Source: Mobula birostris
Lineage: Eukaryota
DNA length: 64,000 nucleotides
Reading direction: 5' to 3'
Assembly (NCBI RefSeq): GCF_030028105.1
Contig: NC_092373.1
Coordinates: 147,289,556 to 147,353,555, forward strand
Shown here: piece after piece, positions 58,401 through 64,000 of the stretch
Layout of the letters: each line of letters opens with the position of its first letter
How positions within the stretch are numbered: position 1 is the stretch's first letter
Made by a program: the position numbers

Positions 58401-61400
58401 AAAGGGTGAATAAAGGACTGAAGGTGTTGCATTTGAATGCGCGCAGTATACGGAATAAGGTAAATGAGCGTGCAGCACAGTTGTAGATTGGCAGGTATGA
58501 TGTTGTAGTCATCACTACATGGTTGAAAGAAGATTAATGTCCATGGATACACATTGTATTGAAAGGACAGGCAGGAAGCCAGAGGGGGCGGTGTTGCTCT
58601 GTTGGTAAAAAAATAAAATTGAATCATTAGAGAGAGGTGACATAGGGCTGGAAAGTGTTGCATCATTGTGGATAGAGTTAAGGAACTGCAAGGATTAAAA
58701 ACTCTTTGATAGGAGTTGTACATAGACCCACAAACAGTAGTAAGGATGAGGGCTACAATTTATAACCGAAGATAGAATTTGCATGCCAAAAGGGCAATAT
58801 TACAATAGTCATTAGGGACTTCAATATGCAGGTAGATTGGGAAAATCAGGTTGGTGCTGGATTCCAGGATAGGGAATTTCTACAGTGCTTACGAGATGGC
58901 TTTTTAGAGCAGCTCATGGTTGAGCCCACTAGAGGATCAGCTATTCTGGATTGGGTATTGTGCAATGAACCAGAATTGATCTGAAACCTTAAGGTGAAGA
59001 ACCCTTAGGGGCAAGTGATTATAATATGTTCAAATTCACCCTGAAATTTCAGAATGAGAAGTTAGTCAGATGTATTAGTATTATGGTGAAGTAAAGGGAA
59101 TTACAGAGGCATGAGAGAGGAGTTGGCTAGAAGTGATTGGGGGGAAAAAACACTGGCAGGGATGATGGCAGGTAAGCAATATCTGGAATTTCTAGAAGCA
59201 ATTCGGAAGGCACAGGATATATACATCCCAAAGAGGAAGAAGTATTCTAAAGGAAAGATGACACAACCATGACTAACAAGAGAAATAAAAGCCAACATAA
59301 AAGCTAAAGAGAGGGCATGTAATAGGGCAAAAACTAGAGGTAAATTAGAGGATTGGGAGGGTTTTAAAAACCAGCAGAAGGCAACTAAAAAGTCATTATG
59401 AAAGATAAGGAAAATGAAAATAAGTGAGCCAATAATATTAAAGAGGATACCAGAAGTTTCTTCAGGTACATAAAGTGTAAAAGGGTGGTGAGTGGATATC
59501 AGACTGCTGGAAAACAATGCTGCAGAGGTAGTGATGAAGGACAAGGAAATGTCAGATGAACTGAATAAGTATTTTTTTGCATCTTGGTAGGGTCTAAGAG
59601 CAGAGTACACAGCCTTGAAATTGAGGGGGCTCTGTTTAGAACAGAGATGAGGAGGGATTTATTTAGCCAGAGTGTGGTGAATCTGTGGAGTTCTTTGCAG
59701 CTGTGGAGGCCAAGTCTTTATGTATATTTAAGGTAGTAGTTGATAAATTCTTGATTGGTCAGGGCATGAAGAGATATGGGGAGATGGCAGGAGATTGGGA
59801 CTGAGAGGACAATTGGATCAGACTCAATGGACCAAATGGCCTAATTCTGCTCCTATATCTTATGGTATTATGGTGTTGTAGCCCCCCTGGCCACCCTCAG
59901 GGTCACTCGGCTCGCTGTCGTCTAGGGAAACAGCCTCGGCCCCGCCAAACTGGGTAATCAGTTTGTGTGGATGCTGTGTGAGGTACCCCACCCCGCCCAA
60001 ATAACAGACCATACACCAGATGCAATTAAATGATGTACAGTTTATAGATATTACTAGAACTATATAATTAAAAGAGAATAAAATATAAAAGGAAAATAAA
60101 AGGCGCCACACTTATCAATGTTCAATCTCTTCGTGCACAAAAAAATCCCGTTGGAGCTCAAGGACCTTCTTCACCCTGCGACCCCCTCGGACCACCTCGA
60201 CCGGCCGCCTGGGATCAACAACGGTGGTCGACCAGATGCTCCACACGAATCTGTCTCCGTCTCCTTGCCGAATATCCCGCTCGGGGTCCGACCCTGTTAG
60301 CGGACTCACAGCACCTCGTCCATCCTCTATCTCGCTCTCCCGCCTTCTGCCCCCAAAACCCCCTCGCAAACAGTATCTTCAAATACACCAAAACCATAAC
60401 AACTATCCTAATTGGTTAATAACGTATTTCTTATCACCCTCTAAACCACAACAAGCCGCTAGCGCAAACTTTCTCAGCGTTTAAGACAACAAAGCCACAT
60501 CCCCCAGATTAACATAACAAAGATGCCATTTTAATTAGCCGCCGCAGTAACATAAAAATCGAAACCTCCTTACACTCCCCCCCCCCCACCAAATAAAGTC
60601 ATGTCCTCATGATTTCTAAATAACTCACCACCCAGTCCTATAGACACACAACACACATACACAGATACACACAGTGACAGTGCTCCCCAAACAGTGGACC
60701 TTACTCTCGTCCCACGGGTGCTAAATAGGCCAACCTATGTGGGAGCTTCTTAACCCTCTGAGACCTCCGTACCCCTTCACCTAAACCCAAAAGGCTCAGA
60801 CACTACTAGGGATACCACGGGCCTGCTTGCCAACTCCTCTCTCACTCAGGCCACCACTACAGCTCGGAGCCCCCAGTCCCGTGTCCAGGGCCCCGCCTCT
60901 CCTCCTTTCCAATCCTGCCGCAACTCAGACTGCCCACAGCTATCCCTCCCCACTACACCTGACTCAGTGGGAGAAGGGCCAAAGGTCTCTTCCTCAATCA
61001 CGGAGAAGTTAGCGAAAGGCAGCATGTTCCACATGTGCAGCACATCATCCTTCGAATCCGTATCCTTCCTCATCCCCTCGATCGATAGCTGCTGGTTAAG
61101 TTTCTCCAAACTGAAACATTTAGCCGGGGCTACCCCTTCAGCCTCCTGCAGTTGAGACGTCAGCTTCTTCGGGGACTCCTTCAACTTTCGCCACAGCCTC
61201 AGCAGTTCTGACTCAGGGTTCTTGGCCATCTCAATCTGGGATGCAGTTACCCCACCAGCTGCTTCCTCCCTGACCTGAAAAGCAGCAGTTAAAGGATGTT
61301 CAGCCTCCGGTTGTTTCTTCCTGAGGGCGTTCTCCAGGTCAACGTTCAGTTTTTCCACTTCATTTAAACTCGCGATAGTCACCTTCAGGTTCCTTTCAAG

Positions 61401-64000
61401 CGTCCGCCTCCATTTTCCGAGATCTGTCCTCCATTTCTTCACCTCGGGAGTGTAGTCAATCTCCTTTCCCTGGGCTCTCGGTTTTCTATTGACCTTAGTT
61501 AGAACACTTCCTTGATCTTCCTCAACTTGTAAATCTTCCAATCTGTTCTGAATGGACGTCTTGAGTTTCTGCTGATCCCTTTGAAGGTGGGTCATCGTTT
61601 CTTCTCGCTGGATTAATTCATCAGTACATGACCGCAGTGTGGTGCAAATCCCCTCTTCCCTGTGTCTCATTCAGATTGACGACCTGGGTTTCCATCCCCC
61701 GGTCCACCACCATCTGTCCCAACACCAGGAAGTTCAACTGGTATGTCGGGTCATTTTCCTCACATTGCACCAAACTCCTCCAGCCAAAAACTCCTCCACA
61801 TTTGACACTTCGCTTCGGTCGCCCGGGCTCAGTCACTCGCCTCGCCTCATAGTCCCCCCAGGCGAATCCAAGCTCTAGGCGGTCATCCACATACGTCAAA
61901 ACTCCACACACCTTCACTTCCCCCATGGTCTTCCTCATGCCCCGTGGGAAGGATGCAGGAGCTCCGGATATGCCCTTGGGCATCTTTTCGGATCAGAAGA
62001 ATCCTAGGGAACTAGTAAAGGCCATCTTCAGCTCAACAGCCGCACTCCTCAGGATCTGGCAACATCCACCCCTCAGATGCAGCACATTAAACCACATCGC
62101 ATAATCCACACACACGCTGCCTTCATCTCCCATGCCGCTAGGGTCCAGTTGCCGCGACCCCTCTCTCACTGAGGTGTCTTCAGCGGTCAACTCCCCTCCC
62201 TCGTGGTGGTTTGGAGCGTCTACTAAGAGGATCTCACTCTCAGCTACTTTCCCCAAGCCGTACCACCGCTGGGTCTCGTTTAAATTTGGTACTGGCTCAA
62301 GGCTGCTACACACATCCTCAGAAGCAACTCGACACACTGGGTGCCCAGACAATGCCCCCATGAACTCCAGGGTCATTAATCAATCATCGTCTTCTGGATA
62401 ACTACTGCCACTAGTACCCAAAGTCTCCGGTGCCCTTGCGGTTGTCAAGGGTAAATGCTTCAAACACCAGTTGTAAAATGAACTGTACAACAACTTGATC
62501 TGTGCTCCGGGGTCGAGGATAGCTTTAGCATCGCTTCTCTCTATCCATAGCGACACCCTGGGGTGTGGCCCCTCTAGGCCTTCAGGAATAGGGTCTTTTC
62601 CTTTCGGAAGTTCATTGGTACATTGCTGGGAACGTGCTTCCCCAGAGACCCCAAGCCTTTCCCCCACTGGCCTCCACTAAGTTTCTCAATCCCCCTCTGA
62701 TCAGCTGAACAACTGAGGGAGGGGCTGACCCCCTGAAATGATCCCTCTGGCACTACAAGCAATTTAGCTGCCCTCCTAGCCAGAGAAGACACACTGAAAA
62801 CATTCCCCCCTCTTTCAAATAACTGACAGCTGTCACTATAGTGTAAGTGAACCTGACAGCTCTAACACCGTCACCAGCCCGCCTACTCAAACTTTCAATC
62901 AATCCCTGTCGCTCTCCCTCAACCGAGCATTGTCACTCATCTAACAACTGAGAGATCTGCTCCGCCCACATCTCACATGCCTCCGCCCCTCTTGGGGTGG
63001 ACACTATCCCAAGTGCCAGGCGGAGCCTGCCAGAGCTAGAACATTTATTCGCAGACTCTATCTCCAAATCAGACCACTCTTTCCTCTCCCTCCCAACCGC
63101 ATGGACAGCCCCTAGTGCCACCTCCAACTCGTCAATGCCAGCCTGAACTCGAACAAAGACCTCACCCACCACGCATGCAGCAATAATCAGCAAATAACCC
63201 ACAGAGACACACATTACAGATTTAAACAGGGCACCCACACAGCATACCAACAGACTCAAGCATCCCGGACAAAGCCCCCACAATGTAGCCCCCCCGGCCA
63301 CCCTCAGGGTCGCTCGGCTCGCTGTCGTCTAGGGAAACAGCCTCGGCCCCGCCAAACTGGGTAATCAGTTTGTGTGGACGCTGTGTGATGTACCCCACCC
63401 CGCCCAAATAACGGACAATACACCAGATGCAATTAAATGATTTACAGTTTATAGATATTACTGGAACTATATAACTAACAGAGAATAAAATATAAAAGGA
63501 AAATAAAAGGCGCCACACTTATCAAAGTTCATCTCTTCGTGCACAAAAAAACCCGTTGGCGCTCAAGGACGACCTTCTTCACCCTGCGACCCCCTCGGAC
63601 CACCTCGACCGGCCGCCTGGGACCAACAACGGTGGTCGACCAGATGCTCCACACGAATCCGTCTCCGTCTCCTCGCCGAACGTCTCGCTCGGGGTCCGAC
63701 CCCGTTAGCGGACTCATAGCACCTCATCCATCCTCTGTCTTGCTCTCCCACCTTCTGCCCCAAAACCCCACGCATACAGTATCTTCAAATACACCAAAAC
63801 CATAACGACTATCCCAATTGGTTAATAACGTATTTCTTATCACCCTCTAAACCACAACAAGCTGCTAGCGCAAACTTTCTCAGCGTTTAAGACAACAAAG
63901 CCGCATTCCCCAGATTAACATAACAAAGATGCCATTTTAATTAGCCTCCGCGGTAACATAAAAATCGAAACACCCTTATAGTGTTATCAACCCTGCTAGT

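What the first reader, a model, noticed from the sequence alone, without database searches (positions are those of the whole stretch)
60846..61790. The captured myosin is a four-segment mosaic whose deletions mostly keep one reading frame
Seen plus recalled MYH sequence: segment A (61780-61660, S2 start, different frame), B (61640-61314), C (61271-61176) and D (61175-61077) come from progressively more distal rod regions with large gaps between them. The C-D join (RKLKE|SPKKL) falls where the myosin has a repeated LEE motif (RRxLEE ... LEEAKKKL), which suggests a microhomology-mediated deletion. B, C, D and the pol tail sit in a single stop-free 274-codon frame although the protein is strongly diverged and the neighbouring gag/PR/RT are broken. 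Inference: this may be chance plus heptad-register microhomology, or selection for a mini coiled-coil protein or for an open frame that stabilises the RNA.
Basis: partly seen in the sequence, partly recalled or inferred. Interest (0 to 1): 0.72.

Follow-up and report, generated by a model that had tools for sequence, protein, structure and literature searches.

The report
Myosin fragment inside ray retrotransposon
A family of jumping genes in stingrays and manta rays picked up a piece of a muscle-myosin gene, fused it to the remains of its own enzyme gene and carried it into many copies; the open reading frame in this copy looks mostly inherited, not special.

Summary
The 274-codon frame (60846-61670, minus strand) is real. 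Three collinear blocks of it match the myosin heavy-chain rod (PDB Myosin-7, E 5e-6).

It lies in a 4.1-kb LTR element (59877-63980) with 697/698-nt LTRs (K2P 0.056), a 4-bp target duplication, a primer-site-like 19-mer and a purine tract.

The element is one copy of a family. Twenty-one predicted proteins on 17 contigs of four myliobatiform rays share the same myosin joins. Its polymerase remnant resembles Ty3 reverse transcriptase, not a retroviral one.

Sister copies read 432-450 codons from the RT remnant into the myosin in one frame. "Segment A in another frame" reflects a frameshift that the two long-frame sisters lack. A "pol tail" and gag/PR were not detected. The donor was a divergent batoid myosin paralog, so the insert is less decayed than it looked.

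This is LTR-mediated retroposition of a spliced mRNA, followed by amplification and in-frame deletions at short repeated motifs.

For this copy, the open frame fits inheritance plus neutral decay. The myosin part is no better conserved than the dead RT remnant and carries 7 prolines.

Across the family, frame retention is hard to get by chance (24 of 3000 simulations). Selection for an open frame stays possible. dN/dS could not be computed.

The parts
59877..63980 (-). Whole LTR element (about 4.1 kb), non-autonomous, sense strand is the window's minus strand
   Evidence: LTR pair found. Ends and flanks read. No second copy in the window.
63284..63980 (-). 5' LTR (697 nt), starts TA, ends CA
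   Evidence: 37 substitutions in 694 ungapped columns against the 3' LTR (26 transitions, 11 transversions), 4 gap events, K2P 0.056.
59877..60574 (-). 3' LTR (698 nt), starts TG, ends CA
63981..63984 (.). 4-bp target-site duplication, copy next to the 5' LTR
   Evidence: Read. The same four bases lie at 59873-59876.
59873..59876 (.). 4-bp target-site duplication, copy next to the 3' LTR
   Evidence: Read.
63262..63280 (-). Primer-binding-site-like 19-mer that starts TGG, three bases after the 5' LTR
   Evidence: Read. The matching tRNA was not tested: there is no tRNA gene in the window.
60575..60590 (-). G-rich polypurine tract directly before the 3' LTR
   Evidence: Read.
62668..63261 (-). 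5' internal part with no recognisable gene (no gag detected)
   Evidence: Two ORFs overlapping it, 62933-63301 (which begins in the 5' LTR) and 62574-62792 (which extends past 62668), have no Pfam family at E<=1.
62380..62667 (-).
   Evidence: No Pfam family at E<=1. The only PDB hit at E<=10 is an unrelated coatomer chain, E 1.4. [quoted passage not shown]
61671..62376 (-). Broken in this copy: 1 stop and 1 frameshift relative to sister P0027. One in-frame deletion of 26 residues is shared by Mobula-type copies relative to Hypanus-type copies.
   Evidence: tblastn counts. P0023 matches Ty3 RT 112-227 at E 2.1e-13. Sub-threshold Pfam RVT_1 in P0023, P0016 and P0006. Profile A3 matches Ty3 RT at E 8.1e-4. 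26-residue gap. Segment A tests.
60846..61670 (-). The 274-codon open frame of the finding (end includes the stop codon)
61077..61640 (-). Myosin-rod-derived stretch: three collinear blocks (ORF residues 11-129, about 134-165, about 166-198) matching Myosin-7 974-1092, about 1149-1181 and about 1386-1429
   Evidence: PDB phmmer alignments. Sister copies. Donor-type paralog.
60849..61076 (-). C-terminal tail of the ORF, origin unknown, predicted disordered, best-conserved part between genera
   Evidence: No Pfam hit. No longer relative. No Atlas lead. pLDDT below 50. 34/47 identical to Hypanus P0005 against 46/95 in block B, Fisher p 0.007.

Best explanation
The ORF is the 3' remainder of a long fused reading frame: RT remnant, then myosin-rod pieces, then a tail of unknown origin. 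That frame belongs to a non-autonomous, Ty3/gypsy-like LTR retrotransposon family of myliobatiform rays.

Inferred origin: during reverse transcription, the polymerase of an LTR element switched template onto a spliced mRNA of a divergent batoid sarcomeric-type myosin paralog and back. This is LTR-mediated retroposition. The product was a chimeric element that lacked most of pol.

Shown: the chimera then spread to many loci, with the same joins in all copies and proper LTRs and a target duplication here. Further internal deletions accumulated.

Inferred: the deletions arise at short motifs that recur in the same codon phase in rod-coding sequence, which favours frame-keeping.

The window's copy is an old, decaying insert. 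Its upstream part of the fused frame has already taken one stop and one frameshift. The 274 downstream codons have simply not been hit yet. The myosin piece is a passenger. There is no sign that it works as a coiled-coil protein in this copy.
For: ELEMENT HALLMARKS
- LTR pair, TG/TA..CA ends, 4-bp duplication, TGG-starting primer site and purine tract.

FAMILY
- 21 predicted proteins on 17 contigs: Mobula birostris 6, M. hypostoma 9, Hypanus sabinus 4, Hemitrygon akajei 2.
- Every copy whose protein covers a given join (B/C, C/D or D/tail) shows the same join there.

RT REMNANT
- Nearest to Ty3 RT at E 2.1e-13.

INTRONLESS CAPTURE
- Sister P0002 aligns without a break to Myosin-7 912-1088, 177 residues.

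DONOR TYPE
- 70% identity to a Narcine 'myosin-6-like' protein against 35% to MYH7.

FUSED FRAME
- P0027 (450 aa) and P0004 (432 aa) are uninterrupted. The window differs from P0027 by 1 stop and 1 frameshift.
- If two breaks fall at random on 1531 nt, both land in the upstream 706 nt with probability 0.21 (my arithmetic).

COPY-LEVEL NEUTRALITY
- Identity to the nearest sister is 190/213, or 89%. In a no-selection simulation this needs 0.057 substitutions per site, the same as the LTR-LTR distance of 0.056.
- P(no new stop since insertion) is 0.37.

NO PROTEIN-LEVEL CONSTRAINT ON THE MYOSIN PART
- Mobula versus Hypanus identity is 46/95 in block B against 110/187 ungapped positions in the dead RT-like part.
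- There are 7 prolines in 190 myosin-like residues.
- AlphaFold2 gives broken helices, mean pLDDT 62.
- 37 ATGs lie upstream of the ORF in the element's sense strand.

MECHANISM IN PRINT
- Tan et al. 2016, PMC5131818: abstract and passages read.
Against: - With the LTR pair's indel rate (4 events in 1395 nt), 2.4 indels are expected in 822 nt per lineage. P(none) is 0.095. Jointly with stops this is about 0.035, so survival of this ORF needs some luck. The LTR indel rate may overstate the rate here.
- At least 7 length differences (1 to about 200 residues) separate the ORF from an uninterrupted rod or from longer sisters, and all keep the frame. Random lengths would give (1/3)^7.
- Exact repeats in the present myosin-like DNA are only weakly enriched in phase: 35/88, 14/29 and 5/7 for 6-, 7- and 8-mers, p 0.12 to 0.045. 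Phase bias alone may not explain the frame-keeping.
- Family level: drifting 214 codons without selection to the 58% identity seen between Mobula and Hypanus copies left no stop in only 24 of 3000 runs.
- The tail is better conserved than block B (p 0.007 and 0.001).
- The RT/myosin fusion point itself was not resolved.
- No DNA of other copies or of the donor gene could be read, so nucleotide microhomology and dN/dS are untested.
- All family proteins are annotation models, chosen because they have open frames.
Confidence: 0.68

Rival explanations
1. The open frame is kept by selection acting on the lineages of the family that went on making copies. One version: a transcript translated almost to its 3' end is more stable. 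Here the stop lies 271 nt before the 3' LTR. Another version: the chimeric protein, or its conserved tail, serves the element. Individual inserted copies would still decay neutrally. This reading is compatible with the origin given above and differs only on maintenance.
For: - Neutral drift to 58% identity leaves 214 codons stop-free in 24 of 3000 simulations. Yet Mobula-type, two M. hypostoma types and Hypanus/Hemitrygon-type copies all include members with collinear open frames of 130-450 codons.
- At least 7 length changes all keep the frame.
- An in-frame 26-residue deletion also occurs in the non-repetitive RT-like part.
- The tail is more conserved than block B.
- The ORF stop lies 271 nt from the 3' LTR.
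Against: - Ascertainment: only copies with open frames become annotated proteins, and the number of broken copies and of independent sub-lineages is unknown.
- The amino-acid sequence of the myosin part evolves at least as fast as the dead RT remnant.
- Several models end where frames break (P0004, P0026, the window).
- No expression, translation or dN/dS data were available.
Confidence: 0.3
2. The mosaic arose before capture, from an aberrantly spliced (exon-skipped) myosin mRNA. The block borders would then be exon borders and the frame would be kept because the skipped exons sum to multiples of three.
For: - A strong acceptor-like site (pyrimidine run plus AG) sits exactly at the B/C border of the window.
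- It corresponds to the point where a Hypanus SDHAF3 isoform model joins the element sequence.
- The Narcine myosin-like isoform P0020 itself lacks a 29-residue stretch.
Against: - Both ancestral joins fall inside motifs that recur at the two donor sites. Exon skipping does not predict this.
- Later deletions arose inside the intronless family and have the same character.
- Exon maps of the donor could not be consulted.
Confidence: 0.12
3. The carrier is an endogenous retrovirus in the strict sense, and the capture is a classical retroviral transduction of a host gene.
For: - The 4-bp target duplication and a TGG-starting primer site are present. By my recollection alone, the primer site looks like the tRNA-Pro type used by some retroviruses.
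- Only a small RT fragment is left to classify.
Against: - Of 7 PDB sequences at E<=1 for P0023, the significant ones are Ty3 RT, Ty3 Gag-Pol and a caulimovirus-type 'enzymatic polyprotein'. None is a retroviral RT.
- No gag, env, RNase H or integrase was detected.
Confidence: 0.12
4. One copy of the family is a domesticated host gene encoding a small helical protein, and the window's ORF is that gene or a recent duplicate of it.
For: - Open frames are present in four species.
- NCBI models exist for many loci.
Against: - The window's copy has intact element structure, and its fused frame is already broken upstream.
- 37 upstream ATGs lie ahead of the ORF.
- Its divergence from sisters equals the LTR divergence.
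- Its protein is not among the annotated ones.
- Synteny could not be examined.
Confidence: 0.04

Closest known systems
LTR-mediated retroposition in animals (Tan et al. 2016, Genome Res, PMC5131818; abstract and passages read; supplements not seen)
   Same: - A partial, intronless host coding sequence sits inside an LTR retrotransposon, in sense orientation and in frame with the parental protein.
- Joins lie at short shared motifs.
- The chimera behaves as a 'pseudo-LTR retrotransposon' open to further rounds of copying.
   Different: - The cases reported there are mostly young and single-copy or few-copy, and 14 of 21 older ones already carry disabling mutations.
- Here the chimera is a diversified family on at least 17 contigs of four ray species in three genera.
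- It has nested in-frame deletions and a long frame fused to an RT remnant.
Bs1 of maize (Elrouby and Bureau 2001, 2010; known to me only through the passages of PMC5131818, and the search listing)
   Same: - An LTR element has lost its own genes and carries host gene fragments in a hybrid ORF.
[quoted passage not shown]
- Secondary copying took place.
   Different: - Bs1 combines three host genes, has one to five copies, and is a plant element.
- Here there is one host gene, deleted into three blocks, with many copies in cartilaginous fishes.
- The hybrid frame starts in pol-derived sequence.
Host-gene transduction by acutely transforming retroviruses (viral-host fusion proteins); general knowledge, recalled
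   Same: - A replication-defective element carries part of a spliced host gene fused in frame to a truncated gene of its own.
- It depends on a helper.
   Different: - The carrier looks Ty3/gypsy-like, not retroviral.
- The cargo is a structural rod fragment with no obvious growth advantage.
- The element is germ-line fixed and old.
Non-autonomous LTR elements without coding capacity (LARDs, TRIMs); general knowledge, and search listing
   Same: - A short internal region.
- No working gag-pol.
- Propagation must depend on proteins supplied by another element.
   Different: Those elements have no long ORF. This family keeps one of up to 450 codons.
Sarcomeric myosin heavy-chain rod (Myosin-7, Myosin-4 in the PDB; Pfam PF01576)
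   Same: Homologous to three stretches of the rod.
   Different: - There is no motor domain and no continuous rod.
- 7 prolines are present.
- No Pfam Myosin_tail_1 match at E<=1 for the window ORF.
- Helices are predicted broken.
- It is not a myosin in any functional sense.

Membership tests
LTR retrotransposon (structural definition) | Two long direct terminal repeats | tested here: met
   697 and 698 nt, 94.7% identical over ungapped columns.
LTR retrotransposon (structural definition) | TG..CA LTR termini and a short target-site duplication | tested here: met
   The 3' LTR is TG..CA. The 5' LTR is TA..CA, with one changed base. An identical 4-bp flank lies on both sides.
LTR retrotransposon (structural definition) | Primer binding site after the 5' LTR and polypurine tract before the 3' LTR | tested here: inconclusive
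   The purine tract is clearly present. A TGG-starting 19-mer lies three bases after the LTR. Its complementarity to a tRNA could not be tested because no tRNA gene is in the window.
Ty3/gypsy (Metaviridae) lineage | RT closest to Ty3/gypsy RTs | tested here: met
   Family member P0023: Ty3 RT E 2.1e-13 and Ty3 Gag-Pol E 1.2e-12, with no retroviral RT at E<=1. Mobula-type profile: Ty3 RT E 8.1e-4. No phylogeny was made.
Ty3/gypsy (Metaviridae) lineage | Domain order PR-RT-RNase H-IN and a gag gene | tested here: not met
   Only part of RT is detectable. No Pfam family at E<=1 in 5 upstream ORFs. No RNase H, IN or gag family in 12 family proteins at E<=0.01. The element is a deleted derivative, not a complete member.
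Vertebrate retrovirus / ERV | Retroviral-type RT, gag and env remnants | tested here: not met
   No retroviral chain among the PDB hits. No gag or env family.
LTR-mediated retrocopy / captured gene (Tan et al. 2016; Bs1) | Intronless host coding sequence internal to the element, flanked by element sequence | tested here: met
   An unbroken alignment of 177 residues to Myosin-7 in P0002. RT-like sequence lies upstream and LTRs on both sides. That this length spans several exons is inferred from general knowledge of MYH genes.
LTR-mediated retrocopy / captured gene (Tan et al. 2016; Bs1) | Microsimilarity at the element/host fusion points | tested here: inconclusive
   The RT/myosin and myosin/tail fusion points could not be placed. 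Microsimilarity is seen only at joins inside the myosin part, and only at protein level.
LTR-mediated retrocopy / captured gene (Tan et al. 2016; Bs1) | [quoted passage not shown] | tested here: met
   The same B/C, C/D and D/tail joins appear in Mobula, Hypanus and Hemitrygon proteins on 17 contigs.
Myosin tail (Pfam PF01576) | Match to the family profile at its curated cut-off | tested here: not met
   No Myosin_tail_1 match at E<=1 for the window ORF and none at E<=0.01 for the 11 family proteins scanned. Homology shows only in pairwise searches against PDB myosins, E 5.3e-6.
Coiled-coil protein under selection | Uninterrupted helix-forming heptad sequence, conserved above a neutral control | tested here: not met
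   7 Pro in 190 residues. AlphaFold2 helices break at 60-74, 120-142 and 180-182, mean pLDDT 62. Block B is 48% identical between genera against 59% for the dead RT-like part.

The most novel reading that the evidence does not exclude
The ray family is not just a carrier of junk. The lineages that kept copying have preserved a several-hundred-codon chimeric frame (RT remnant, myosin helices, conserved disordered tail) for the whole time since the manta/devil-ray and whiptail-stingray lineages separated. The cause would be that translation through to the tail, or the chimeric protein itself, benefits the element's RNA or its packaging. That would be a non-autonomous LTR element whose only 'gene' is a captured and remodelled host fragment.
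Probability: 0.25. Interest if true: 0.7.

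Novelty: new member of a known kind. Interest (0 to 1): 0.45.

Why it matters
Gene capture by LTR retrotransposons is documented, but few vertebrate cases are known and most are young single copies.

Here a captured myosin-rod fragment has ridden a defective Ty3/gypsy-like element into many loci of at least four ray species. 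The copies form a natural series of nested, frame-keeping deletions.

That series is a ready-made data set for two questions:
- How do template switching or slippage at in-phase repeats shape coding sequence?
- Can a non-autonomous element be selected to keep an open frame?

It also matters for annotation. NCBI models name these loci 'myosin heavy chain-like', 'myosin-16-like', 'MYH16', and even isoforms of SDHAF3 and GSTT2. This inflates myosin counts and creates doubtful isoforms in ray genomes.

Tried and rejected
- Pfam on the ORF and five upstream ORFs: only two sub-threshold, unrelated hits for the ORF (CortBP2 E 0.0065, DUF4404 E 0.01) and none for the others.
- Search for longer relatives of the whole ORF: 2116 candidates, none at E<=0.001.
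- Search for longer relatives of the tail alone: 11 candidates, none at E<=0.01. No fused full-length element and no source of the tail was found. The tool calls this weak evidence.
- Protein Atlas: closed for the window's own sequence. With the stored sister P0002 it gave no usable feature hit and only bacterial structure look-alikes at TM below 0.5.
- The other two frames of the tail DNA are full of stops and show nothing.
- PDB search of the protease-like ORF: nothing relevant.
- Segment A alone against the PDB: one unrelated hit at E 0.71.
- A family profile did not extend the myosin alignment upstream of about residue 916.
- Phase of exact DNA repeats in the myosin-like part: weak, inconclusive enrichment.
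- Direct repeats in the internal region: only short two- or three-copy matches.
- Whole window: no Rfam family, no tRNA, no second copy or solo LTR.
- Literature: four searches found no description of this family or of a myosin capture. These were LTR retrotransposon + gene capture + myosin; Mobula + transposable elements + genome assembly; myosin heavy chain + endogenous retrovirus + transduction + captured; and stingray + LTR retrotransposon + Gypsy (listings and abstract starts only).
- Rejected: chance similarity to myosin, because all 12 PDB hits are myosins and the blocks are collinear.
- Rejected: an island of openness in a wrecked provirus, because sisters have 432-450-codon frames.

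Full report
WHAT IS IN THE SEQUENCE

The minus strand of 60846-61670 carries an ATG-to-stop frame of 274 codons, with a stop codon directly before the ATG.
- It is the second-longest ORF of the 64-kb window. The longest, at 14444-15307, lies in a minisatellite with a 33-nt unit.
- In 2000 composition-matched shuffles of the element's 2709-nt internal region, an open run of 274 or more codons appeared 6 times. The other five frames of the same DNA hold 7-21 stops each.
- A phmmer search of the PDB returned 12 sequences at E<=1. All are myosin heavy chains or an MYH7 chimera, best E 5.3e-6.
- The alignments place ORF residues 11-129 on Myosin-7 974-1092, about 134-168 on about 1149-1183, and about 163-200 on about 1386-1429. 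The blocks are collinear and in one frame.

Pfam does not see the likeness: there is no Myosin_tail_1 match at E<=1.

THE CARRIER

The ORF lies in a 4.1-kb LTR element, 59877-63980, whose sense strand is the window's minus strand.
- The LTRs are 697 and 698 nt. They differ by 37 substitutions in 694 ungapped columns (26 transitions, 11 transversions) and 4 gap events, K2P 0.056.
- The 3' LTR starts TG and ends CA. The 5' LTR starts TA and ends CA.
- The same four bases flank both ends.
- A TGG-starting 19-mer follows the 5' LTR, and a G-rich purine tract precedes the 3' LTR.
- The internal region is only about 2.7 kb.
- None of five upstream ORFs has a Pfam family at E<=1.
- The polymerase remnant is recognisable only through relatives. 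Hypanus protein P0023 matches Ty3 reverse transcriptase (4ol8, residues 112-227, E 2.1e-13) and Ty3 Gag-Pol (E 1.2e-12), with no retroviral RT at E<=1.
- Pfam RVT_1 is found below its cut-off in 3 of 12 family-related proteins scanned. A profile of Mobula-type copies reaches Ty3 RT at E 8.1e-4.

So the carrier looks like a deleted Ty3/gypsy-type retrotransposon. It is not shown to be a retrovirus. The window has no second copy or solo LTR.

IT IS A FAMILY

- A search among proteins of similar length gave 10 hits among 495 candidates.
- The exhaustive representative search gave 20 proteins at E<=0.001. Fifteen are family members. The other five are a repeat protein, an unnamed myosin-like fragment, a Narcine 'myosin-6-like isoform X4', a fish hypothetical protein and a bird MYH7 fragment.
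- With three more cluster members, the family numbers 21 predicted proteins. Six are from Mobula birostris, nine from M. hypostoma, four from Hypanus sabinus and two from Hemitrygon akajei.
- They sit on 17 different contigs by length. M. birostris is placed in the order Myliobatiformes; that the other three species belong to the same order is my recollection, not a call.
- None is identical to the window's protein. The closest is 89% identical, 190/213. The window probably comes from a Mobula or close relative, which is an inference.
- Every copy whose protein covers a given join (B/C, C/D or D/tail) shows the same join there. There was therefore one capture, followed by spread.

- P0027 (450 aa) and P0004 (432 aa) read without interruption from the RT-like part through 'segment A' into the myosin blocks.
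- Against P0027 the window uses two frames and has one in-frame stop: two breaks, both upstream of the 274-codon ORF. 'A in a different frame' thus reflects a frameshift that these long-frame sisters lack.
- P0002, P0003 and P0010 keep about 39 further myosin residues between 'A' and 'B'. P0002 aligns to Myosin-7 912-1088 in one piece, E 5e-9.
- Only the last ~19 residues of 'A' fall inside that alignment. The window's own frame over 'A' gives no myosin hit at E<=10. A family profile does not extend the match above about residue 916.
- Whether the first part of 'A' is myosin or RT-derived stays open. It is not shown to be the start of S2.

THE DONOR

Family member P0007 is 70% identical (49/70) to the Narcine 'myosin-6-like' protein P0020. 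P0020 continues as ordinary rod past the element's B/C join and carries a sub-threshold Myosin_tail_1 match. Over the same stretch P0007 is 35% identical (24/69) to a bird MYH7. The donor was thus a divergent batoid paralog.

THE JOINS

- The end of block C and the start of block D both align to one four-residue motif (L-E-E-A) that Myosin-7 has at the two corresponding places.
- The B/C join lies in an R-x-E-E type motif present at both places in Myosin-7 and in P0020.
- Within the family, further deletions of 3 to about 70 residues distinguish subfamilies. In at least four of them the longer relatives show the same 2-3 residues at both ends of the missing stretch.
- The Mobula-type RT-like part also lacks 26 residues, in frame, relative to Hypanus-type copies.
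- Altogether at least seven length differences, from 1 to about 200 residues, separate the window's ORF from an uninterrupted rod or from longer sisters. All keep the frame.
- The two copies of the C/D motif lie 208 residues apart by the alignment coordinates, which is not a multiple of seven. The codon phase is kept, not the heptad register.
- In today's DNA, exact repeats within the myosin-like part are spaced in phase in 35 of 88 (6-mers), 14 of 29 (7-mers) and 5 of 7 (8-mers) pairs, p 0.12, 0.068 and 0.045. The RT-like part shows no such trend. This is suggestive only.

IS THE OPEN FRAME OF THIS COPY MORE THAN CHANCE?

The simulations used half the LTR distance per lineage.
- The ORF gains no stop in 37% of simulations.
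- With the LTRs' indel rate, 2.4 indels are expected in 822 nt, P(none) 0.095. The joint probability is about 0.035. The indel figure is crude.
- A fairer internal control is the fused frame itself, 1531 nt from 62376 to 60846. It has two breaks. If breaks fall at random, both land in the upstream 706 nt with probability 0.21 (my arithmetic).
- The 89% identity to the nearest sister corresponds, without selection, to 0.057 substitutions per site, the same as the LTR-LTR distance of 0.056. This fits neutral decay if both copies left their source at about the same time, which is an assumption.
- 37 ATGs precede the ORF on the element's sense strand. Efficient translation from a full-length transcript is therefore unlikely, which is an inference.

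For this copy, inheritance of an already open frame plus moderate luck is enough.

IS THERE SELECTION AT FAMILY LEVEL?

- Mobula and Hypanus copies are 55-60% identical over 214 collinear codons, depending on the method; the simulation target was 58%. Drifting the window's codons without selection to 58% identity took 0.27 substitutions per site and gave a mean of 4.9 stops. Only 24 of 3000 runs had none.
- Several deep subfamilies nevertheless include members with open collinear frames of 130-450 codons.
- This argues that the lineages which kept copying kept the frame.

The argument is weakened by ascertainment. Only open copies become annotated proteins. I could not see the genomes, so the share of broken copies and the number of independent lineages are unknown.

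IS IT A COILED-COIL PROTEIN?

- Between the window and Hypanus P0005, identity is 46/95 in block B, 21/31 in C, 21/35 in D and 34/47 in the first part of the tail.
- The dead RT-like part is 110/187 ungapped positions identical between P0027 and P0023. The largest myosin block is thus no better kept than a polymerase fragment that cannot work.
- The Mobula birostris-type copies that span the whole myosin-like stretch (all but the truncated P0026) carry 6-9 prolines in about 190 myosin-like residues, against 0-3 in most other subfamilies. The aligned Myosin-7 stretch shows none.
- AlphaFold2 with the 22-row family alignment gives mean pLDDT 62. It predicts confident helices at 3-59 and 75-119, weaker ones in C and D, and breaks between them.

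Selection for a mini coiled-coil protein is therefore disfavoured.

THE TAIL

- The last ~75 residues match nothing. There is no Pfam family, no longer relative and no Atlas lead. The other frames are closed.
- 'Pol tail' is unsupported.
- The tail is predicted disordered, pLDDT below 50.
- It is nevertheless the best-conserved part between genera, Fisher p 0.007 and 0.001 against block B.
- The cause could be constraint on the protein, or on the RNA or DNA near the 3' end. I cannot tell which.

MECHANISM AND COMPARISON WITH WHAT IS KNOWN

The anatomy fits LTR-mediated retroposition as described by Tan et al. 2016 (PMC5131818; abstract and passages read). The features of that mechanism are:
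- template switches at microsimilarities inside the particle;
- partial, sense-oriented, often in-frame host inserts;
- chimeras that can be copied again.

Maize Bs1 is the classic multi-copy example. I know it only through that paper's passages.

Shown here: element hallmarks, an intronless host insert, shared joins and many loci. Inferred: the template-switch origin, dependence on a helper element, and slippage or switching at in-phase repeats as the source of later deletions.

This case differs from the published ones in four ways. The host group is batoid fishes. The cargo is a myosin rod. It has grown into a diversified family across three genera. It keeps a long frame fused to an RT remnant.

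Four literature searches found no description of it (listings only).

WHAT STAYED UNCHECKED

- The DNA of other copies and of the donor gene. As a result, ORF retention over all copies, dN/dS, nucleotide microhomology, exon borders, synteny and orthology were not tested.
- Expression, translation and small RNAs. No such data were at hand.
- The supplements of Tan et al., which were not read.
- Two hits from unnamed sources (P0017, P0019), which were not used.

VERDICT

The interpretation needs correction on the carrier, on segment A, on the tail and on the degree of decay. The thing is a new member of a known kind. Interest is moderate (0.45). It would be higher if the family-level frame retention proves to be selected.

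Noticed in passing
window 61275-61296 (minus strand), at the border of myosin blocks B and C: A pyrimidine run ending in AG looks like a strong splice acceptor. The Hypanus model 'SDHAF3 isoform X1' (P0009) switches from SDHAF3 sequence to element sequence at exactly the corresponding residue. A Hemitrygon model (P0018) uses blocks C-D as an internal exon. Copies of this family seem to be exonised into host transcripts.
   Followed up: partly
family proteins P0001, P0003, P0024, P0007, P0011, P0023 (no window coordinates; corresponds to about ORF residue 214): Six models lose similarity to the family at the same residue early in the tail and continue with unrelated sequence. A shared splice-donor-like site in those copies would explain this. 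The window's copy reads on in frame there. The DNA of the other copies was not available.
   Followed up: no
protein P0027 (Mobula birostris): It is named 'glutathione S-transferase theta-2 isoform X1' by its source. It has no Pfam family at E<=0.01 and is element-derived from first to last residue. Other copies are named myosin-16-like, MYH16, myosin-7B-like or cardiac myosin-like. These are likely annotation artefacts.
   Followed up: partly
window 14345-15174: A G+C-rich, strongly strand-skewed minisatellite whose main unit is 33 nt (13 copies, 93% matches). Because the unit is a multiple of three, it produces the window's longest ORF (14444-15307, 287 codons), which gives only low-complexity Pfam hits.
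   Followed up: partly
window 1154-1927 (+): A 257-codon ORF with a weak match to the C-terminal end of Pfam RVT_1, E 0.0098, below the cut-off. It is probably a LINE remnant. The ORFs at 54792-55792 and 57959-58723 beside the element have no Pfam family.
   Followed up: no
window 61137-61153 and 61299-61315: A 17-nt direct repeat (82% identical) inside the ORF, spaced 162 nt apart, which is a multiple of three. It is an example of the in-phase short repeats that remain in the myosin-like sequence.
   Followed up: partly
whole window: No Rfam family at gathering score and no tRNA gene in 64 kb.
   Followed up: yes
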